IMG/VR virus record: IMGVR_UViG_3300031578_004185
Span: 3,779 to 67,778 of that record
Origin: a virus
Reading direction: 5' to 3' (one strand)
DNA length: 64,000 nt
Shown here one piece after another: positions 1 through 61,330 of this stretch. The notes beneath the pieces are model-generated. The model made no database searches. It was not told the origin of the DNA and saw only the letters and a program-made list of their open reading frames with translations. Position numbers and translations under genes: made by a program. Position 1 is the stretch's first letter; each line of letters starts with the position of its first letter.

Positions 1-1561
1 GACGGACGACTCTGGTGTCGTCGGTATCCGTAATACCCAAGGCAAACTCTGCATATCCTTCGACCCCGCCGACCTGCTAGAATTTCTCCGTTACTCTTCC
101 AAGAAAACAGTGCGGGTTTTCTGGGATCTTGATGCATCTATCGCGTCAGTCCTTAAAACCCTCTCAAAATCGGTTCTGGTGCGTCTGGTGGCGTTTGACG
201 ACGACCTTTCGGTGTCGGGGCACCAGCTCTACTACCTGCCCGACCGGATGTTCCGTGTTGGCCGTTCTCGTTACTACTCTATTAGACAATTCTGGCCAAC
301 CTCTGAGCCGACTCCTGGAACCCTTGAAGAAGTCCAAGCTAAGGCAGACGAACTAGCCGAGACTCTCACCGATTGCGGCATGGGCGACTTCACCCGCTTG
401 GTATCCCCCATATCCGTGTTCGAGGAGACCGAGCTGGGGCAACAGACCTATAACTCTATTCCTAAGGGCTACGAGATACCGCCGTCCTGCTTCGAGTGCT
501 TGGAATATGCGTCCAAGTGTGATAAACGAGAGTGGGTATCAGCATACCAGCTCGGTCATTGGGTAGGGGGCGAGATCTGGGACTACGACGTGAACTCGAT
601 GTACCCTTCCGTAGCATCCAACTTGTTCAATTTACACGAGATGGAGATGTGGAAGTCGGACAAGTTCGGGTCCCGAGAGCAGGGTGCTTACTACGGTTTC
701 CTGCGAGGACGCCTCTACCTTGACCCGTCCTCACCGACTATTCACTGCTCCCCTATTATTGCTGATCTTGAGCGGCTCCCCGGCAACCCCGCCGGAGACT
801 TCGGGGACGACTACCCTCTCACTCTGGACGAACTTCGCCTTATCCAGCGCAACGGCTGGGGGGAGTTCCGTATGAAAGACGGCTGGTTCTTGAAACCTTA
901 CGCTGGTGTCCGCCCTACCAGACCCTTCAAGGAGATTATGGATCATCTCTACCAACAACGCTATAAGTCCGAGCTGGTTAGTTCTATTATAAAGGGTGTC
1001 GCTAATCAGCTAATCGGGAAACTCATTGAGACCCGCGTAGATGGTGATTATGGTAAGTTGAGAAACGATATTTACCACGCTTTAATATTGTCCCAGGCGA
1101 GAGTAAAAGTAGCCGAGTTCCTACTCAATAACGATGTCCAGAAGGACGAGCTGGTAGCCGTGCAGACTGATGGTGTCCGTATGACCAAGTTCGTTCCGGT
1201 GAAGGGCAACGGTATGGGGAGTTGGCGGTGTAATGGAAGCCAAAGCACAATTGTCGCTTCGCCTTACCGAGTTTTCTGTGGTGACAAGAAGCCTGGTCAT
1301 TTGACTCATGATATGCTTGTGTCGATGATACAGGAACATCCTCTCTCAAAATACTATGGAACAAACGTCAAGCATCGTTTAACTTTGCGCCAAGCACTTC
1401 AGATAGGAGATATAGCGTTAGTTGGTACAATTGATAACTTACCTGCACATATTGATTTACTGGCGCTCACTCGCGAGCAAAACAGGAACTTTTCTCGTTT
1501 CCCCCAAACTGGCTCAAGTCTACTTAGCAACCAGTACCAATCCACCCCAATAATTCTTTAG
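1..1561 (+). CDS. Divergent family B DNA polymerase (protein-primed-like), 5' partial
   Basis: Motif A DYDVNSMYPS, motif B KGVANQLIGK, motif C VQTDGV; the frame is open from base 2, so the start lies upstream of the window. Confidence 0.75.
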   Translation, partial: TDDSGVVGIRNTQGKLCISFDPADLLEFLRYSSKKTVRVFWDLDASIASVLKTLSKSVLVRLVAFDDDLSVSGHQLYYLPDRMFRVGRSRYYSIRQFWPTSEPTPGTLEEVQAKADELAETLTDCGMGDFTRLVSPISVFEETELGQQTYNSIPKGYEIPPSCFECLEYASKCDKREWVSAYQLGHWVGGEIWDYDVNSMYPSVASNLFNLHEMEMWKSDKFGSREQGAYYGFLRGRLYLDPSSPTIHCSPIIADLERLPGNPAGDFGDDYPLTLDELRLIQRNGWGEFRMKDGWFLKPYAGVRPTRPFKEIMDHLYQQRYKSELVSSIIKGVANQLIGKLIETRVDGDYGKLRNDIYHALILSQARVKVAEFLLNNDVQKDELVAVQTDGVRMTKFVPVKGNGMGSWRCNGSQSTIVASPYRVFCGDKKPGHLTHDMLVSMIQEHPLSKYYGTNVKHRLTLRQALQIGDIALVGTIDNLPAHIDLLALTREQNRNFSRFPQTGSSLLSNQYQSTPIIL

Positions 1562-1580
1562 AAAAATCTTTGGTTACCCC

Positions 1581-1609
1581 TTGACAAATGTTCAGTAGTA
1601 TGCTATGCT
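1581..1609 (+). promoter_or_regulatory. sigma70-type promoter with extended -10
   Basis: TTGACA(1581-86), 17 nt, TATGCT(1604-09), TG at 1601-02. Confidence 0.85.
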
Positions 1610-1615
1610 ATTTGT

Positions 1616-1783
1616 ATGGACATTAAAGAGGTTCGCAAGCAGTTGGGAATGACTTCTCAGGACTTGGCTGTAGTTCTCGGTGTATCTGTTGCTACTGTGA
1701 GTCGCTGGGAGACCGGGAAGCACAAGCCTTCCAAGTTGGCTCTGTTGCGTCTGAAGGAGTTGATCGACAAAATGAAAACTTGA
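1616..1783 (+). CDS. XRE/Cro-like HTH regulator (55 aa, probably leaderless)
   Basis: Manual translation MDIKEVRKQLGMTSQDLAVVLGVSVATVSRWETGKHKPSKLALLRL; ATG 7 nt after the -10 box, no SD. Confidence 0.9.
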   Translation: MDIKEVRKQLGMTSQDLAVVLGVSVATVSRWETGKHKPSKLALLRLKELIDKMKT

Positions 1784-1862
1784 TGGTTGCCGTGACTTGA
1801 TTTCGTGTGGCTTGAGGTTCCTTGTATTCAATCGGTTTTTATTAAGCTAAATTAAGCAAAAA
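1778..1862 (+). ncRNA. Candidate guide RNA 1: 5-nt-periodic array (KTG-like trimer + variable NN)
   Basis: TTG cc GTG ac TTG at TTC gt GTG gc TTG ag GTT cc TTG ta TTC aa TCG gt TTT ta TTA ag CTA aa TTA ag; pyrimidine at the trimer centre in 14/14 units; leader ACTTGATGGTTG and trailer TTAAGCTA..AGCAAAA shared with array 2. Confidence 0.65.
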
Positions 1863-1879
1863 GTAGAAGGAGGCATTTT

Positions 1880-2497
1880 ATGCCAACAGCAATACCAGTA
1901 TATTTTTGGGAAGCCGAAGTCGAGGTTGAAACAAATGACTTAGCCTTTTCTCCACAGACTAATACCGAAGGTCGAGGGGCATTGGCGAAGCGGATATTCA
2001 CAGCAGACTGGCTCCACGATGGTCAGGTCTGGTTCAGTCCGTCCAAGAGGCTAGGAGGGTGGCTGAAGTCGCAGTTGCCACTGGCTAGGTCAACCTATGC
2101 TAACCAGATGGCTGCGGTCAAGGTCTTCCCCGCAGATGGTGATGGGGAGTATGTCCTTATTGCCGAAGTGAGCGAGTTGGTTGGAGGCAATAATCCTCTA
2201 CCTATGGCTCATGTGCTACCGAAGGGGTTGTCGTGTCCTTACTGGACATATATTAACGTCCCACAGGAGCGTGGGACTGGGACGAGGGTTGCCCCAACTT
2301 ATTGGTATGAGTTGCATAAACCCGTTGTCCACCGAGTCCGCATCCTGAGCTTTGCTAGGGGCATTAGCCCTGAGATTGTGAAAGAGGCCCTGAGCAAGCT
2401 GGGCAGAGCTACCGGGATTGGCGATAAACATAGTGTTGGGAAGGGCAGATTCAAGTTGGTGAAGTTTGAATATAAGCAAGAGAAATTGGCACTTTAG
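1880..2497 (+). CDS. Solitary RAMP-superfamily protein (Cas7/Csm3-like)
   Basis: C-terminal glycine-rich loop LGRATGIGDKHSVGKGRFKL typical of RAMPs, N-terminal beta strand, 205 aa, strong SD AGGAGG; no other cas genes recognised. Confidence 0.75.
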   Translation: MPTAIPVYFWEAEVEVETNDLAFSPQTNTEGRGALAKRIFTADWLHDGQVWFSPSKRLGGWLKSQLPLARSTYANQMAAVKVFPADGDGEYVLIAEVSELVGGNNPLPMAHVLPKGLSCPYWTYINVPQERGTGTRVAPTYWYELHKPVVHRVRILSFARGISPEIVKEALSKLGRATGIGDKHSVGKGRFKLVKFEYKQEKLAL

Positions 2498-2507
2498 GAT
2501 ACTTGAG

Positions 2508-2587
2508 ACTTGATGGTTGAGTGTGGTACGCAGTTCAGTGTCGCGTGTCTCCTTGGATTGTACTGGGTTGTGTTAAGCTAAGCAAAA
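2508..2587 (+). ncRNA. Candidate guide RNA 2: 5-nt-periodic array
   Basis: Same 12-nt leader ACTTGATGGTTG (2508-19); GTG gt ACG ca GTT ca GTG tc GCG tg TCT cc TTG ga TTG ta CTG gg TTG tg TTA ag CTA ag CAAAA; central pyrimidine 12/12. Confidence 0.55.
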
Positions 2588-2604
2588 TATTACCGAGGTT
2601 GGAA

Positions 2605-3030
2605 ATGACGGAAAACGAGATAAACGAGAAGGTCAAAGAGTGGTTGACTAGCCAAGGGTACGTCTATAAGGGTGTCCTAAATGCCAAGCCTAAAGAGGGT
2701 GCTAATCCGAATGGCTATGGTCAAGTAGCAGTCCCCGACGGAACTAGGGATGTTCTTATTGACCATACCGGACACAAAGATAGACCTGTTGACCTTATTT
2801 GGATAGAAGCTAAAGGTTCAGGCATCGGATTGTCTATGCTCCTTCAGGGGTTCGCCAGAGTTGGCTACGCCGTTTATCATGGGGGCGGGCGAGGGTTACT
2901 TGCCTGTCCTGCTACCGAGTTTGATACGATGTTCGCCCAAAGGGATTTTCTGAAGGCTATCGGAGTCGCCAGTGAGAGGTCTTTGGGACTGCTGGATGGA
3001 GAGTCCGGGAGAGTTGAGTGGCTGACCTAA
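2605..3030 (+). CDS. PD-(D/E)XK restriction-endonuclease-like protein
   Basis: DVLIDH...LIWIEAKG catalytic pattern; probable start ATG 2605 after GAGG. Confidence 0.6.
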   Translation: MTENEINEKVKEWLTSQGYVYKGVLNAKPKEGANPNGYGQVAVPDGTRDVLIDHTGHKDRPVDLIWIEAKGSGIGLSMLLQGFARVGYAVYHGGGRGLLACPATEFDTMFAQRDFLKAIGVASERSLGLLDGESGRVEWLT

Positions 3031-3037
3031 GCAACTT

Positions 3038-3226
3038 ATGGGAGTTACACTGAGACAGGCGATCCAGCAGGGGGACGTCAGCAAAGTGGGGGAGCTGGAC
3101 GATCTACCTGCTCACTTGGATCTGATAGGGATTACTAGGGAGCAGAACAGGTACTTCCCGAAGCTCCCTAAGACAGGTAGGGCGTTGCTGAACGGGAGGT
3201 ACCAGTCGAAGGCAGTAGTCCTCTAG
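3038..3226 (+). pseudogene. Orphan C-terminal fragment of the polB-like gene (second allele)
   Basis: TLRQAIQQGDVSKVGELDDLPAHLDLIGITREQNRYFPKLPKTG aligns with TLRQALQIGDIALVGTIDNLPAHIDLLALTREQNRNFSRFPQTG at the end of 1..1561. Confidence 0.85.
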
Positions 3227-3270: not shown

Positions 3271-3450
3271 ATGAGAGCAGACGATATCCGAAGAATAAGG
3301 CTCAGTTTGAGTATGTCCCAGCAGCGATTCGCCGAGAGGCTGGGGGTCAGCATTACCACCGTGAACAGATGGGAGCGTGGTCGCTCTAACCCCTCTCCTC
3401 TTGCTCTGACACGGTTGCGAAGGATGCAGCGGAAGGTGGTGGTGGAATGA
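3271..3450 (+). CDS. XRE/Cro-like HTH regulator (paralog of 1616..1783)
   Basis: MRADDIRRIRLSLSMSQQRFAERLGVSITTVNRWERGRSNPSPLAL. Confidence 0.9.
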   Translation: MRADDIRRIRLSLSMSQQRFAERLGVSITTVNRWERGRSNPSPLALTRLRRMQRKVVVE

Positions 3451-4079: not shown

Positions 4080-4102
4080 CAACAATGCTCTACTGCGCTA
4101 GT

Positions 4103-4174
4103 GCACTAATACACTATTACACTAACACACTATTACACTACTATACTATTGCACTACTATACTATTGCACTATT
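4103..4174. repeat. Nine tandem 8-bp repeats (RYACTANT), iteron-like
   Basis: gcactaat acactatt acactaac acactatt acactact atactatt gcactact atactatt gcactatt. Confidence 0.9.
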
Positions 4175-4183
4175 AAATAGTCT

Positions 4184-4251
4184 CGCGTGCGCGCGCGTAC
4201 GCGCGTGGGGGTCCCGGGGAGGGGGTAAGGGGGTGTGGGGGGAAGGGGGGG
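4184..4251. other. 24-nt purine/pyrimidine alternation followed by G-tracts (Z-DNA/G-quadruplex potential)
   Basis: cgcgtgcgcgcgcgtacgcgcgtg, then six runs of 4-7 G. Confidence 0.75.
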
Positions 4252-8374: not shown

Positions 8375-8554
8375 ATGAGCGAGGAACTGAGAAGGAAACT
8401 GGAACTGAGAAGGAAACTGGAACTGAGAAGGAAACTGGAGACACTGTCCACCCAAGCCCTCTATAAGCGCAGGGCGTTGGAGTACCTGCTGTTGGTCGAG
8501 TATAGGACACGCGTCCTGCTGGGACACGCAAGCACACGGACCGGGTCTCGCTGA
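8375..8554 (+). CDS. Small protein with (ELRRKL)x3 repeat
   Basis: 18-bp unit gaactgagaaggaaactg x3 at 8384-8437 in frame; SD AAGGAG; TGATG coupling to the next gene. Confidence 0.55.
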   Translation: MSEELRRKLELRRKLELRRKLETLSTQALYKRRALEYLLLVEYRTRVLLGHASTRTGSR

Positions 8555-44476: not shown

Positions 44477-47400
44477 AGTCTCACACTCCTTACCACGGTT
44501 GGCTGGTTGTCCCTTTTGCCGATCCGCTTCGGTTTCTTCTTGCTCATCTTAGCTCGGTTGACCCCCTTGCTACTCACGCCCTCTGTACTATGGGCGTCAG
44601 ACCCTCTGAGCCACCCGGGGTCCTCGTCAAAGTACAAGTCCCTTGGTTCGGGTTCAACCTGCCTTATTCTAGCAGACTCCACCCGCTCTTCAGCTACTCT
44701 CTTTCTCTCCTCCACTACCTCTGGACGATTAACGCCCCGCATCTCGATTTCCCCTTTTACCCTGTCAGGCTTGGTAGTAGCGGATATAGCCGTCCTTGAT
44801 ACGCTGTGAGCGGGCTTGACAGTACCAATCTCCGAGCGAGATATGCCTTGACTCGGCACGGACATGCCCTTCGTAGGACTGTCAACTCCTCTACCGACAT
44901 TGGTCTCCAGACCCTTACCACCGACCTCTATCCGTTGTCCATAGTCGCTGATAAAGAAGTCCACTATGCCGAAATCGGCATTAACCTTCTCAGGGACTTT
45001 AGCCCTTGGTTTGCCTATCATCTGCACCGTCCCCTTGACCGTCTTTAGGTGCGTGTTCTTTGCCCCCATTGGGACTACGCCTCTAGGGAGCGTCTGCATC
45101 TTCGGCTGGTCCCACGGAGGAGGTGCCCATCGCCAGAACAGACCATGCTTCACTGTAATGCTCCCCGGCGGTAACTCTGCTCGCTTACCGGATATCCGTG
45201 GTCTGACCAAGGCAACTGGTGGGGGCGGCGTAACAGGTATTATTCTGGGCGTCGGTCTAGGGGTCACCACAGACATAATAGGTGTTTTCACAGGCGTAAC
45301 CGGCGTTTTTCTCGGTGTCTCTCTCGGTGTCTCTCTCGGTGTCTCTCTCGGTGTCTCTCTCGGTGTCTCCCTAGACGTTGTTCTGGGAGTCGTCCTAGGT
45401 GTTATCTCGGGAACCAATCTTGGGGTGCCCCTAGCACTAATCTCCGGCACAGGCTCCCCTGCTACACGCGTTGGTGCGAACCCGGATGTGACTGGAACTC
45501 TCTCAGCGAAGATTGTTTGTTCCCTAGCCTCGGAGGGTGGGATTTCCCTAATTCCAGCCATAGCACGAGGAACTATTGGGATAACGCGCAACATTCTCCG
45601 TTCACGGAAAGGAACGAGGAAATCAGTAGGCCCGGCTCTTGGAACCTCAGCAAGTGTTGCTTTAACTCGCCTAGCATTGTCGTTCGAGGCGTACAACAAA
45701 TCCCGCTCAGGGGTCTTAAAAGTAGCCTTCAAGTTCTTAACATCCCTAGCCTTCTTTGCTCCCCGTAATATCTCATACTCAGGAGTTCCTTTGGGGTACT
45801 GCTTTATCCCCGCAGTCGGTAGGTGTTTATCCACCACAACCAACTTGGAAGTATCAAACCCCCGCTTGTAAAGTTCTATGTACAGAGACGGGCTGACGGC
45901 TGCTGAATCCCCGGAGCGAAGAACACGGACAGCACCAATCTCCGGCTCGTATACCCACTCTCTCGCCTTCCAGTCGTACCACTTGTTCATTGGTATCTTC
46001 AATTTCAGGCTAGCAGGTTCGCCGTCAAACATATATGTCCCAAAGGCGGAGTGTTCAGTGGTCTTGCCCATGTGGACTTCGGCAGGACGCATATTTTTAA
46101 CTCTAATCCCCAGTTCGGATATTATTTGCTCCTCAGCGAACTCCTTTAGTGTCCCTCTACCAAAGGGTCGACCAACTCTCGGTTGCCCTCTCACATCTAT
46201 TTGCCCACCGATGGTATTCCAGACTCCAGCAAGATCAGTCGCAGCCGTATCGGTTCCTACGATATATGCCCCCTTGATAGTGGGGTGTTTAAGCATCACA
46301 GCCGTTCTCGGAACGACCCAGTTATCACCGAATTCCCGTACCGGGTGATAGTATGGGTCTCTCGTTCGTACCAACCTACCATTTCGGTCAACAAAAGGAA
46401 CGTCAGCCAACCCAGAAGGGTCTCCGGCTTTCTCTAACTTGGAGGCTAATTCAGGGGTAGACAATCTTCGACTTGGGTCTCTACCTTCCAAGAACGCGCG
46501 GACAGCAACGTCGACAGGACTGGATTTCATCTCCTGCAACGTTATTCCCCGGCTGTACCACATCTTCGGCGAGGTGACGATATCACTAGCCCTAGCTCTT
46601 GGTCTAATAGCTTTGCCAGGGTCAAACCAGTTCTCTATCGCCACTTTAGGGCGACTAACGAATTTGGTATGATACAACTGTCGCATAGTTGGTAATACTC
46701 TGCCCTCGGCGATTGCCGCGTTCGTTGCCGTAATGACAATCGGCATACTCTGACCGGCTCTGATACGTTGCCCGGTTACTATATCCATACCCGCGATCGG
46801 GCTGTAAGTTGTTATGGTCGCCACTTCGGGCATCGTCTCCCCACCTGTGGCAACCTTATCTAACCTACGGACAGGAGCGAACACCTTGGAAGTAAACCCT
46901 GCAGGGGTAACCATCTCCAATTCCCAAGTGGGTCTAATTTCACCGCTCGGTTCTTGTGACCAGTGAAACTTGTAAACAGGGTAAACACCTTGGGGCAGAG
47001 CATCGGGATGCCCGGGAGGTAATAGTGCTCTCCGTTCTACTTCACGCCTGAGCAGGTCGTTCGCCGCGGATACGGGGTCGCCAAAGTTGCGCTTCTTGGC
47101 TGCCATCCATATCCTCTCGTTCCGCATCTGCTTAGAAACCGCTTCGTGGACAACCATAGGCAAATCCCGTATGTCTTTAGAGCTGTAGCGGAGCATTTTG
47201 CCACCAGGAGAATACCAATCCTTTATCTTAGGAATCGTATCCTTGGGTATCACGTAGTCCTTGAACTTGGGACTGGACGGGTTCTCTAAAAGTTCACGCA
47301 ATACCGTCTCCGCAGTCTTCTTGGTAACCAACGCACGATTGGCGACGCGAAATGAGTTGACTACTTCCTGCGGTATCTTGCCCAAGTACCACCCAGCGAC

Positions 47401-60260: not shown

Positions 60261-60578
60261 TTACCCGCTACTGGTACACGCCTTCCCAACCAGCAATAGT
60301 ACTACTACCAGTAGGCCTATCACTGAGAAAAACTTTATTGGGGTAGGCACTCTCCCCCATAAACTACCGACAGAATCGAAGTCAAACGCACTCCGTGGCT
60401 GATTCTCCCTTATCTTGTCCTCGGCATCCCGTATCCGCTTCCTGACTTGAGCTTCCTTCTCAGCATACGCAGCTTTCTCCTCGAGAGACGAGGCTCGGGA
60501 TTCCAACGCAGACAGCTTCCTCTTCTGCTTCTCCTGCTTGGAGAGAGGTCGTAGTCTCCTTCTAACTTCCTCTATCAT
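60261..60578 (-). CDS. Coiled-coil protein with C-terminal TM
   Basis: 105 aa, SD GGAGG. Confidence 0.6.
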   Translation of the reverse strand: MIEEVRRRLRPLSKQEKQKRKLSALESRASSLEEKAAYAEKEAQVRKRIRDAEDKIRENQPRSAFDFDSVGSLWGRVPTPIKFFSVIGLLVVVLLLVGKACTSSG

Positions 60579-61330
60579 TTGTCTCCTCCCCCGTTATGTA
60601 GTTCCGACACAATACTCTTAGCTAGTTTCTTACCAATACCAGGAACAGACAGCCAGTCCTTCTCGGTAGCACCGACCATCTCGGCTACAGACGAGAACCT
60701 GTGAGCAATATCCGCCGACTTTTCCCAACCTACACCCTTTAACTCGCTCGCCACCCGGCGGACAAAACTCGGTCTGACAAGCTGAACAGTCGGCATCGGT
60801 GGCTTGAATATCTGCTTCAGGGACTGGTGCCTGTCGGGAGGGGTTTGGTAGTTATCCCACAGCGCTTTAATAACAGATACTGTCTCCTTAACATCCTCCG
60901 TTCGCTTAATCATTATCCCGGCATCACGATGCAACTCGGTGAGGAACTGGTCGAACCGACTGTAGGTTATTGTCGGTTTTACCGGAGTCCAGATCTCGGC
61001 ACGATGTAGGGTTCGGGGATTGATGCCCCAGACCGGTATCTCCAGCAACCCGTCATCAGGATTAGAACGGACTCTGCCCTCCGCGATGACAATAAAGACA
61101 TCTATCCCGTTCTCCTTGACTATCTGCGCTTGGTGCAGAAGGCGACCATCATTGATGCACTGAACGAGGTCGCCGATCTTCTTACGTTCAACCCCGATCG
61201 TGAGTGCGGTGTCGTTCTCGCCCTTACCCCAGAAAGCACAGTCGGTGAACAGGGGGCAAGGGACGGCAATAGAGCCGAGGGCTTTTATCATGTCCTGATC
61301 GTTGGGGAGATTAGAGCAGAATACAGGCAT
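60575..61330 (-). CDS. ERCC4-type nuclease with HhH domain
   Basis: TDCAF...GVERKKIGDL; VPGIGKK. Confidence 0.85.
   Translation of the reverse strand: MPVFCSNLPNDQDMIKALGSIAVPCPLFTDCAFWGKGENDTALTIGVERKKIGDLVQCINDGRLLHQAQIVKENGIDVFIVIAEGRVRSNPDDGLLEIPVWGINPRTLHRAEIWTPVKPTITYSRFDQFLTELHRDAGIMIKRTEDVKETVSVIKALWDNYQTPPDRHQSLKQIFKPPMPTVQLVRPSFVRRVASELKGVGWEKSADIAHRFSSVAEMVGATEKDWLSVPGIGKKLAKSIVSELHNGGGDK

What the first reader, a model, noticed from the sequence alone, without database searches (positions are those of the whole stretch)
1244..1841. Array 1 dinucleotides spell codon positions 1-2 of a homolog of the adjacent polB gene
Seen: the variable dinucleotides at 1790-1841 are CC AC AT GT GC AG CC TA AA GT TA. 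Read as NNx codons they give P-T-I-V-A-S/R-P-Y-K/N-V-Y. The resident polB at 1244-1276 reads agc aca att gtc gct tcg cct tac cga gtt ttc = S-T-I-V-A-S-P-Y-R-V-F. Seven of 11 dinucleotides match exactly and in frame, and three of the four mismatches are compatible with synonymous or conservative changes (TCN/AGY Ser, Arg/Lys, Phe/Tyr). A rough binomial gives about 1e-6 per position (about 0.1-0.2 expected over both strands of 64 kb), so the match alone is not decisive; the proximity (500 bp), the frame and the amino-acid conservation carry the argument. Inference: the guide targets the polB allele of a related competing virus, skips the wobble base so that synonymous escape is blocked, and spares its own mismatched allele.
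Basis: partly seen in the sequence, partly recalled or inferred. Interest (0 to 1): 0.92.

Follow-up and report, generated by a model that had tools for sequence, protein, structure and literature searches.

The report
VIPR guide RNA aimed at polB
The short repeat array beside this virus's DNA polymerase gene is a guide RNA of the recently described VIPR system; its variable base pairs match the polymerase gene of a related virus perfectly, while the virus's own copy carries four escape changes.

Summary
The 11 variable dinucleotides at 1790-1841 match the resident polB at 1244-1276 in 7 of 11 codons, in frame. This is the best such match in the window, but 7/11 alone is at noise level.

Among 23 related polB alleles, 16 read exactly PTIVASPYKVY at this site, which is the peptide the array spells. 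A cassette-free relative (L075) matches 11/11 dinucleotides, with the skipped base at the wobble position. A MAG contig (L076) matches 10/11. The resident allele differs by P>S, K>R, Y>F and a serine codon-family switch (AGT>TCG).

The locus is promoter, HTH, array 1, a 205-aa Cas7-like RAMP, array 2 and a PD-(D/E)xK nuclease. It fits the VIPR system published as 2026 preprints: a Vipr filament presents NN dinucleotides, and the target skips every third base. The mechanism is therefore already known.

New here:
- a clade with NN-(U/G)-Y-G repeats instead of GGY;
- a nuclease partner inside a virus;
- polB as a recurrent target (five independent guides);
- tight linkage of cassette, target gene and resistant allele, with a mosaic polB that hints at homing-like spread.

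The scan had noted VIPR-type arrays on another genome before (e1-3414384).

The parts
1..1561 (+). polB gene; the window starts just after its start codon, and the full gene encodes 529 aa in the 68-kb record
   Evidence: Weak Pfam DNA_pol_B_2 and PHROG DNA polymerase matches. 24 homologues found.
1244..1276 (+). Resident, mismatched copy of the array-1 target site (STIVASPYRVF), 7/11 dinucleotides
   Evidence: It differs from the family consensus PTIVASPYKVY at P>S, Ser AGT>TCG, K>R and Y>F.
877..906 (-). Site in the resident polB matched 9/10 by the first guide of relative L077 (antisense, wobble-aligned)
   Evidence: The same guide is 10/10 on L075 polB and 7/10 on its own polB.
388..423 (-). 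Site in the resident polB matched 9/12 by the solo guide of L075 (antisense, wobble-aligned)
1581..1609 (+). Promoter-like site TTGACA-17-TATGCT with TG extension; the likely start of the cassette operon
   Evidence: No terminator-like site between 1400 and 3500.
1616..1783 (+). 55-aa HTH_3 (Xre-type) regulator, first gene of the cassette
   Evidence: Pfam HTH_3, E 3e-13. The same gene precedes the cassette in L002, L063, L066, L068 and L077.
1778..1860 (+). vrRNA 1 (array 1): leader ACTTGATGGTTG 1778-1789, 11 pentamers NN-KYG 1790-1844, tail TTAAGCTAA..TTAAGCAAA 1842-1860
   Evidence: Perfect 11/11 target in L075.
1880..2497 (+). vipr: 205-aa minimal RAMP (Cas7-like) with G-rich loop GIGDKHSVGKGRF
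   Evidence: AF2 pLDDT 93. Top Foldseek hits are type III/VII Cas7 proteins and Cas7-11 domains, E about 1e-5. Family of 41 close and 30 representative homologues.
2508..2587 (+). vrRNA 2 (array 2): same leader and tail; 11 pentamers at 2521-2575 with NN = GT GT CA CA TC TG CC GA TA GG TG; target not found
   Evidence: Best 1-skip match in the held data is only 7/11 and not wobble-aligned.
2605..3030 (+). vap: 141-aa PD-(D/E)xK-fold nuclease candidate with D53, E68 and K70 invariant in the family
   Evidence: Alignment. AF2 pLDDT 86. Foldseek hits: XisH, AF2093, EndoMS, Hjc, Mrr-type endonucleases.
3038..3226 (+). Remnant of a consensus-type polB C-terminus (62 codons) left behind the cassette
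   Evidence: 47/60 identical to the C-terminus of allele P0073 (35/36 over the first 36 residues) but only 33/60 to the resident polB C-terminus.
3271..3450 (+). Second HTH_3 gene behind its own TTGACA promoter; with the remnant it repeats the 'polB end - promoter - HTH' order
61029..61073 (+). Site inside the ERCC4/HhH nuclease gene (60575-61330, minus strand) matched 10/15 by the upstream guide of relative L064 (antisense, wobble-aligned)
   Evidence: The same guide is 10/15 on the gene beside the L063 cassette.

Best explanation
Window 1581-3030 is a VIPR (Viral Interference Programmable Repeat) operon: promoter, HTH regulator, vrRNA 1, vipr, vrRNA 2, vap.

By analogy with the solved SUSP1 system, one Vipr protomer binds each five-base unit of the RNA. 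It buries the semi-constant trinucleotide, here (U/G)-Y-G, and presents the two variable bases. The 11 presented dinucleotides of vrRNA 1 pair with a DNA strand in which every third base is skipped.

The cognate target is the 33-bp stretch of polB that encodes PTIVASPYKVY. This motif is nearly invariant in this polymerase family and lies about 25 residues after the TDG catalytic motif. Because the skipped base is the codon wobble base, synonymous drift in competitors does not break recognition.

The virus's own polB escapes through four changed dinucleotides: three conservative substitutions (P>S, K>R, Y>F) and a serine codon-family switch (AGT>TCG).

The effect on a co-infecting relative is inferred to be loss of its replicative polymerase, either by transcriptional block as shown for SUSP1 or by cleavage through the PD-(D/E)xK Vap.

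Shown here: the anatomy, the code, the perfect natural target and the mismatched self allele. Inferred: RNA expression and processing, filament formation, binding and outcome.
For: 1. Perfect target. 11/11 dinucleotides at L075 2574-2606 under the 1-nt skip rule, in frame. The chance of 11/11 at a given position is about 6e-14. L076 gives 10/11.
2. Protein level. 16 of 23 non-self polB alleles spell exactly the guide peptide. Other guides score 4-7 on the same protein set.
3. Only the 1-nt skip gives matches of 80% or more for arrays of 10 or more units. Skips of 0, 2 and 3 give none.
4. Independent guides of the same clade also hit polB, all wobble-aligned where DNA was available:
   - L077 guide 1: 10/10 on L075, 9/10 on this virus, 7/10 on its own polB.
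   - L075 solo guide: 11/12 at protein level, 9/12 on this virus.
   - L064 downstream guide: 10/12 at protein level.
   - L003 guide 2: 8/13 on its adjacent polB.
5. The orthologous arrays L063_u and L064_u keep their NN while the 'constant' trinucleotides drift. Selection therefore acts on the NN.
6. Vipr fold is Cas7-like RAMP. The two-gene vipr+vap layout with flanking arrays is conserved while the neighbours change.
7. The published VIPR mechanism and structures explain a 5-in-RNA to 3-in-DNA register.
Against: - No RNA data: no RNA-seq run holds this DNA, so transcription, processing and the ends of the vrRNA are unknown.
- The repeat consensus is not GGY. Sequence similarity to the type Vipr (SUSP1) is confined to the G-loop (hhalign probability 9%), so transfer of the structural mechanism is by analogy.
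- The 3' tail is short and not predicted to fold, unlike the SUSP1 pseudoknot.
- How many mismatches abolish binding is not known for this clade, so 'self-sparing' at 7/11 is inferred.
- No target was found for array 2.
Confidence: 0.9

Rival explanations
1. Coincidence: the array is some other repeat, and its resemblance to polB is a chance match picked out after the fact.
For: 7/11 in the window is at noise level. About 0.12 hits are expected per window, and the wrong skip rules reach 7/11 too.
Against: 11/11 and 10/11 on independent polB alleles. The guide peptide equals the family consensus. Four other guides of the clade also map to polB in the wobble register.
Confidence: 0.01
2. TRAP-like operator: the phased KYG triplets are binding sites for a multimeric RNA-binding protein that controls translation of the downstream genes. 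The dinucleotides are mere spacers.
For: Formal likeness to the 11 (G/U)AG triplets with 2-3-nt spacers bound by TRAP (my own knowledge). Each array ends a few bases before the Shine-Dalgarno sequence of the next gene. The RNAs are unstructured.
Against: Spacers would not be conserved between orthologous arrays while the triplets drift. They would also not match polB perfectly in the codon register. An added autoregulatory role of Vipr binding to its own mRNA is not excluded.
Confidence: 0.03
3. Decoy or counter-measure: the array does not arm this virus. It soaks up or redirects Vipr complexes of competitors, as shown for satellite-borne solo vrRNAs.
For: Solo vrRNAs that redirect foreign Vipr are described (10.64898/2026.10.15.759431). 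A solo array exists in relative L075.
Against: Array 1 sits in one operon with its own vipr and vap. Its target is an essential gene of relatives, not a decoy repeat.
Confidence: 0.04
4. The guide is real, but the outcome is silencing only. The cassette sits next to polB merely because a guide and its resistant allele must stay linked (poison-antidote logic). No nuclease-driven copying is involved.
For: Silencing is the only outcome shown for VIPR so far. Linkage by selection explains the adjacency seen in the window, L077, L003 and L067.
Against: It does not by itself explain the conserved D-E-K nuclease partner. It also does not explain the mosaic polB with a leftover C-terminal fragment or the duplicated polB 5' fragment beside the L075 solo array.
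Confidence: 0.5

Closest known systems
VIPR systems (Vipr + vrRNA; type example Escherichia phage SUSP1; bioRxiv 10.64898/2026.04.26.720920, 10.64898/2026.04.26.720927, 10.64898/2026.10.15.759431)
   Same: - Small single-RRM RAMP with a G-loop.
- Arrays of 10-17 five-base units with two hypervariable bases, followed by an invariant 3' tail.
- A vipr+vap gene pair flanked by the arrays, encoded in a virus.
- Targets found by the 1-nt skip rule, in coding sequence on either strand, with the skip at the wobble base.
- Targets belong to competing relatives, and there is no self match of 80% or more.
   Different: - The constant trinucleotide is (U/G)-Y-G after the NN, not GGY. A 39%-identical relative uses NN-YCA.
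- The G-loop keeps the Asp that reads G1 in SUSP1, but has K-H where SUSP1 has W178-R179.
- There is a conserved 5' leader (GATGGTTG) and a short unstructured tail, with no pseudoknot.
- Vap is a PD-(D/E)xK fold inside a virus, whereas the discovery preprint ties nuclease partners to host-borne types.
- The target is the replicative polB of sister viruses, next to the cassette, with a resistant resident allele.
- I could not tell whether this clade is among the seven published types, because the supplementary data are not held.
Type III / VII CRISPR Cas7 backbone proteins (Csm3, Cmr4, Cas7-11 domains)
   Same: Best structural matches of the 205-aa protein. Both bind guide RNA as a filament with periodic thumb-induced breaks.
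   Different: There is no CRISPR repeat-spacer array, no other cas genes and no adaptation module. The register is 5 nt with 2 pairing bases, instead of 6 nt with 5 pairing bases.
Homing endonuclease genes and phage marker exclusion (e.g. T4 seg/mob genes; my own knowledge)
   Same: A nuclease-bearing cassette sits beside the gene that carries its recognition site. The resident allele is resistant through a few substitutions. The host gene is mosaic around the site.
   Different: Recognition would be RNA-guided and re-programmable. Neither cleavage nor copying has been shown.
TRAP (trp RNA-binding attenuation protein) binding sites
   Same: About 11 phased triplets separated by 2-nt spacers in an unstructured RNA.
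   Different: The protein fold is RAMP, not a TRAP ring. The 'spacers' carry the information.

Membership tests
VIPR | Vipr protein: small (~20 kDa) minimal RAMP with RRM core, G-rich loop and thumb | tested here: met
   205 aa; AF2 pLDDT 93. Foldseek top 50 PDB hits are all Cas7-family RAMPs, E 7e-6 to 2e-4. AFDB clusters give the same result. G-loop GIGDKHSVGKGRF, with G179, G181, D182, G187, G189 and F191 conserved.
VIPR | vrRNA: 9-16 tandem pentanucleotide units, a conserved trinucleotide alternating with hypervariable NN | tested here: met
   23 arrays of 7-17 units. Positions 1-2 are uniform and positions 3-5 are K-Y-G. The consensus differs from the canonical GGY; the discovery preprint allows 'a related consensus'.
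VIPR | Invariant 3' tail after the repeat tract, structured in the SUSP1 clade | tested here: inconclusive
   A conserved TTAAGCTAA(G/A)CAAA tail is present in most arrays. However, no fold is more stable than shuffled sequence, with z from -1.5 to +1.4.
VIPR | Minimal locus: vipr plus one accessory gene (vap), flanked by intergenic vrRNAs | tested here: met
   The window and loci L001-L007, L066-L069, L074 and L077 all carry the RAMP followed by a 140-150-aa gene, and most, though not L071 or the weakly periodic L074, have arrays in the gaps.
VIPR | Targets obey the 1-nt skip rule, mostly in coding sequence with the skip at the wobble base, on either strand | tested here: met
   win_A1 11/11 (sense) and L077_1 10/10 (antisense) on L075 polB, both wobble-aligned. 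Skips of 0, 2 and 3 give nothing at 80% or more for arrays of 10 or more units.
VIPR | No self-targeting at 80% NN match or more | tested here: met
   Best self match of array 1 is 7/11 = 64%. L077_1 reaches 70% on its own polB.
VIPR | Detectable homology to published Vipr proteins | tested here: inconclusive
   hhalign of the family profile against SUSP1 Vipr (KT454805.2 28474-29061, minus strand) aligns only the helix and G-loop, with probability 9% and E 0.004. The authors themselves report that RAMPs lack sequence similarity.
VIPR | vrRNA is expressed, processed and co-purifies with Vipr; the complex binds dsDNA | not testable with these tools
   No RNA run holds the locus.
CRISPR-Cas type III | Repeat-spacer array with contiguous spacers, plus Cas10/Cas5/Cas6/Cas11 partners | tested here: not met
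   No CRISPR-like repeats and no Rfam match. The neighbours are an HTH gene and a PD-(D/E)xK gene only.
Homing endonuclease-type mobile cassette | Nuclease cuts the cassette-free allele at a site beside the insertion point, and repair copies the cassette | not testable with these tools
   Indirect evidence only: adjacency of cassette and target gene in four contexts, the mosaic polB and the leftover fragments. No empty-site joint was seen in contigs of four runs.

The most novel reading that the evidence does not exclude
These VIPR cassettes may behave as RNA-guided homing or marker-exclusion elements. Each sits next to the gene its guide recognises (polB here and in L077 and L003; an ERCC4-type nuclease gene in L063), together with a resistant allele.

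In a mixed infection, the Vipr-vrRNA complex would mark the sensitive allele of the competitor and the PD-(D/E)xK Vap would cut it. Recombinational repair from the armed genome would then copy the resistant allele and the cassette.

Three observations would be scars of such events: the mosaic polB of this window (about 90% identical to allele P0073 up to about residue 420, about 63% after residue 436), the orphaned consensus-type polB C-terminus at 3038-3226, and the duplicated polB 5' fragment beside the L075 solo guide.
Probability: 0.3. Interest if true: 0.8.

Novelty: new variant of a known kind. Interest (0 to 1): 0.6.

Why it matters
The recognition code is already published, so the finding does not reveal a new principle. 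It adds natural history that the three preprints do not contain.

- It gives an independent confirmation of the 1-nt skip rule in a distant clade from environmental viruses, one with a different buried trinucleotide. This shows the code does not depend on GGY.
- It identifies the replicative DNA polymerase as a recurrent battlefield. Five guides from different relatives hit five different conserved polB sites.
- It provides a natural escape allele. Resistance came from conservative amino-acid changes plus a serine codon-family switch, which is the only kind of 'synonymous' escape the wobble-skipping code leaves open.
- It shows tight linkage of guide, nuclease, target gene and resistant allele. 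This makes testable the idea that an RNA-guided system can drive its own spread, as homing endonucleases do.
- The co-variation between repeat consensus (KYG, YCA, GGY) and G-loop residues offers a handle on how Vipr proteins read their repeats.

Tried and rejected
- Rfam, tRNA and tandem-repeat scans of the window found nothing at the arrays.
- IMG/VR holds no relatives. This was checked by Vipr peptide patterns, by the exact 22-base gapped target and by the polB profile. The leader-N(40-70)-tail pattern gave 55 hits without the five-base phase, all consistent with chance.
- tblastn of Vipr against 50,697 phage records found no match.
- An alignment-based scan of metagenome contigs failed for lack of conserved blocks. 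The single-protein scan gave three short loci.
- My first working idea was a TRAP-like operator with spacer dinucleotides. I dropped it after the NN conservation and the perfect targets appeared.
- A shared AG-CC-TA-AA run between array 1 and L067_d2, and the 7/12 match of L067_d2 to its own vipr, are within chance expectation. I do not use them.
- Array 2: no convincing target at DNA or protein level in the held data.
- No RNA run holds the locus. Laying contigs of four DNA runs showed near-identical virus in soil, marine sediment and subsurface samples, but no cassette-free joint.
- The nucleotide comparison of the window with L077 is collinear at about 71%, with no sharp module boundary. 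L077 is therefore not the recent donor of the polB 3' end.
- The profile comparison with SUSP1 Vipr was weak.
- The supplementary tables of the discovery preprint are not held, so the VIPR type could not be assigned.
Full report
**Observation.** Window 1778-1860 lies between a 55-aa HTH gene and a 205-aa gene. Read in fives from 1790, it gives CCGTG ACTTG ATTTC GTGTG GCTTG AGGTT CCTTG TATTC AATCG GTTTT TATTA.

Placed on DNA with one base skipped between dinucleotides, the string matches polB 1244-1276 in 7 of 11 positions, in the polB reading frame. This is the single best place on both strands of the window. The count itself is not remarkable, however. About 0.12 such hits are expected per window, and in a 137-kb control set the wrong spacing rules also reach 7/11. 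A permutation test restricted to 4 kb either side gives p = 0.013.

**Anatomy of the locus.** A second element at 2508-2587 has the same 12-base leader (ACTTGATGGTTG) and the same tail (TTAAGCTAA...), with a different inner string. One sigma-70-like promoter (1581-1609) precedes the HTH gene, and no terminator-like site occurs before 3500. The unit is therefore promoter, HTH, array 1, 205-aa gene, array 2, 141-aa gene.

- The 205-aa protein has no Pfam or PHROG match but folds with pLDDT 93. Its best structural matches are all Cas7-type RAMPs of type III and VII CRISPR systems and Cas7-11 domains. It ends in a typical G-rich loop.
- The 141-aa protein folds (pLDDT 86) as a PD-(D/E)xK nuclease domain resembling XisH, Mrr-type endonucleases, EndoMS and Hjc. 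D53, E68 and K70 are invariant in nine relatives.

**The family.** The RAMP has 41 close and 30 representative homologues in metagenomes. In every contig fetched it is followed by the 140-150-aa gene, while the outer neighbours differ. In most of these contigs the gaps around the two genes hold arrays with the same leader and tail and 7-17 five-base units.

Over 19 arrays, positions 1 and 2 are compositionally flat. Position 3 is T or G in 81% of units, position 4 is always a pyrimidine, and position 5 is G in 64%. Two orthologous arrays (L063 and L064 upstream) keep nearly the same dinucleotides while their 'constant' trinucleotides drift. This shows that the dinucleotides carry the selected information. 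A 39%-identical relative (L070) uses NN-YCA units instead, so the buried trinucleotide co-varies with the protein. The RNAs are not predicted to fold.

**What is known.** A literature search found that this kind of system was described in 2026 as VIPR.

- The discovery preprint reports a minimal RAMP (Vipr) and vrRNAs of 9-16 pentamers with a conserved GGY and hypervariable NN. It reports recognition of double-stranded DNA by the NN with one target base skipped per unit, the skipped base mostly at the codon wobble position, and targets on either strand. It reports natural targets in competing phages and satellites, seven types, and accessory vap genes (10.64898/2026.04.26.720920).
- A companion preprint gives the structures: one protomer per repeat, GGY buried, NN presented, and five RNA bases per three DNA bases (10.64898/2026.04.26.720927).
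- A third preprint shows competition with a satellite and describes solo vrRNAs (10.64898/2026.10.15.759431).

**Test of the specific claim.** I collected 24 polB homologues and aligned the site. Sixteen of the 23 non-self alleles read exactly PTIVASPYKVY, and 19 are within one residue. That is precisely the peptide spelled by the array: P T I V A S/R P Y K/N V Y.

The resident allele is the odd one, STIVASPYRVF. It deviates at positions where the family is at least 87% conserved (P in 20/23, K in 22/23, Y in 22/23).

- At DNA level, contig L075 has no cassette after polB and reads CCC ACG ATT GTT GCC AGT CCT TAC AAG GTC TAT. That is 11 of 11 dinucleotides, with every skipped base at the wobble position.
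- A MAG contig (L076) gives 10/11, the one miss being an Ala>Val change, again with Ser = AGT.
- The resident allele encodes the same serine with TCG. This is a codon-family switch that changes both recognised bases without changing the protein.

With the three conservative substitutions, the self match falls to 64%. This is below the 80% used for natural targets in the preprint, which also found no self-targeting above that level.

**Controls and replication.** On the polB protein set, other guides score 4-7 of 10-17 positions; array 1 scores 11/11. Across 23 arrays and 153 kb, only the 1-nt skip yields matches of 80% or more for arrays of at least 10 units.

The claim replicates with independent guides:
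- L077 carries the same polB-HTH-array-vipr-array-vap layout. Its polB allele is NTVVASPYRVF with Ser = TCC, only 6/11 to array 1. Its first guide matches L075 polB 10/10 on the antisense strand, this window's polB 9/10 (877-906) and its own polB 7/10.
- L075 has a solo array between a duplicated 21-codon polB 5' fragment and polB. That guide matches polB of relatives 11/12 at protein level, this window's polB 9/12 (388-423) and its own polB 7/12.
- The L064 downstream guide matches polB allele P0094 10/12 at protein level.
- L003 guide 2 matches 8/13, in frame, in the adjacent 554-aa gene. A profile comparison identifies that gene as the same polB family (probability 99.7%).
- A guide from L064 matches 10/15, wobble-aligned, in this window's ERCC4/HhH gene (61029-61073) and in the gene next to the L063 cassette.
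- Seven of 22 arrays have a partial match in their own locus at p < 0.04 (Fisher p = 6e-4). All of the matches I checked for register are wobble-aligned.

**Mechanism.** The best-supported reading is a VIPR operon whose first guide is aimed at a nearly invariant motif of the polymerase of sister viruses. The wobble skip makes synonymous drift irrelevant. The resident allele is protected by four changed dinucleotides.

Formation of a Vipr filament on the RNA, with the (U/G)-Y-G buried, is inferred from the SUSP1 structures. The family keeps the G-loop aspartate that reads the first G in SUSP1, but has K-H where SUSP1 has W178-R179. This is in line with a different trinucleotide. What happens after binding is open: transcriptional block, as shown for SUSP1, or cleavage by the conserved PD-(D/E)xK partner.

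**Linkage and possible homing.** The cassette lies beside polB in the window, L077, L003 and L067.

The resident polB is mosaic. It is about 90% identical to allele P0073 over residues 226-420 but about 63% after residue 436, although that part is otherwise well conserved. The switch falls at the guide's target site.

Behind the cassette lies an orphaned 62-codon polB C-terminus (3038-3226). It is 35/36 identical to P0073 over its first 36 residues but only 55% identical to the resident C-terminus. It is followed by a second promoter and HTH gene.

This is what a recombination that brought in the cassette together with a resistant polB 3' part would leave. It fits two readings: nuclease-driven copying (homing or marker exclusion), or selection for keeping guide and resistant allele linked. 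I could not separate the two. No cassette-free joint was seen in contigs of four runs, and L077 is not a recent donor.

**Verdict.** The kind of system is already known from 2026 preprints. This locus is a variant clade, with a different repeat consensus, a short unstructured tail and a PD-(D/E)xK partner in a virus. It also shows biology those preprints do not describe: polB as the target, a natural escape allele, cassette-target linkage, and mutual targeting among relatives.

Noticed in passing
L070 (contig of P0044, 39% identical Vipr), around 470-546 and 1168-1339: Three arrays whose five-base units are NN-CCA / NN-YCA instead of NN-KYG, with a similar leader (AATGGTTG) and an AACTAAAC-type tail. 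The buried trinucleotide seems to co-vary with the protein.
   Followed up: partly
L075 981-1152: A 21-codon copy of the polB 5' end (MTSITAYEVWSEDDLVGIRNI), then a solo vrRNA (12 units, 1054-1113), then the full polB. No vipr or vap lies within the 7.9 kb held. The solo guide targets polB of relatives.
   Followed up: partly
window 1763 onward, in run X5 (marine sediment): A contig identical over 1595-1768 then diverges into a different leader and array (GTAAGAATGTAGAGTCTTGATGGTTGAACT...). Near-identical strains appear to carry different first guides.
   Followed up: no
window 4090-4250: Nine copies of an 8-bp unit (CACTATTA), then CGCGTACGCG x2 and a G-rich 8-bp repeat. Contigs of several runs break or vary here (loose ends at 4138, 4172 and 4216). 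Function unknown.
   Followed up: no
window 45310-45369 and 8383-8439: Perfect tandem repeats: TCTCGGTGTCTC x5, and an 18-bp unit x3.2. Not examined.
   Followed up: no
L071 / L072 (35% identical Vipr) and L065 (48%): vipr and vap are present (overlapping by 4 bases in L071) but no phased array is visible in the adjacent gaps. The arrays may lie elsewhere or use an unrecognised unit.
   Followed up: no
L003 3843-3907 and L067 6192-6251: A third array follows vap and lies directly upstream of the polB-family gene in these relatives. The window has the polB remnant at the corresponding place instead.
   Followed up: partly
window 60575-61330 (minus strand): A 251-aa ERCC4 + helix-hairpin-helix nuclease gene. 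Its allele is matched 10/15 by a guide of relatives L064/L063, so this virus's genes are themselves in the sights of other VIPR cassettes.
   Followed up: partly
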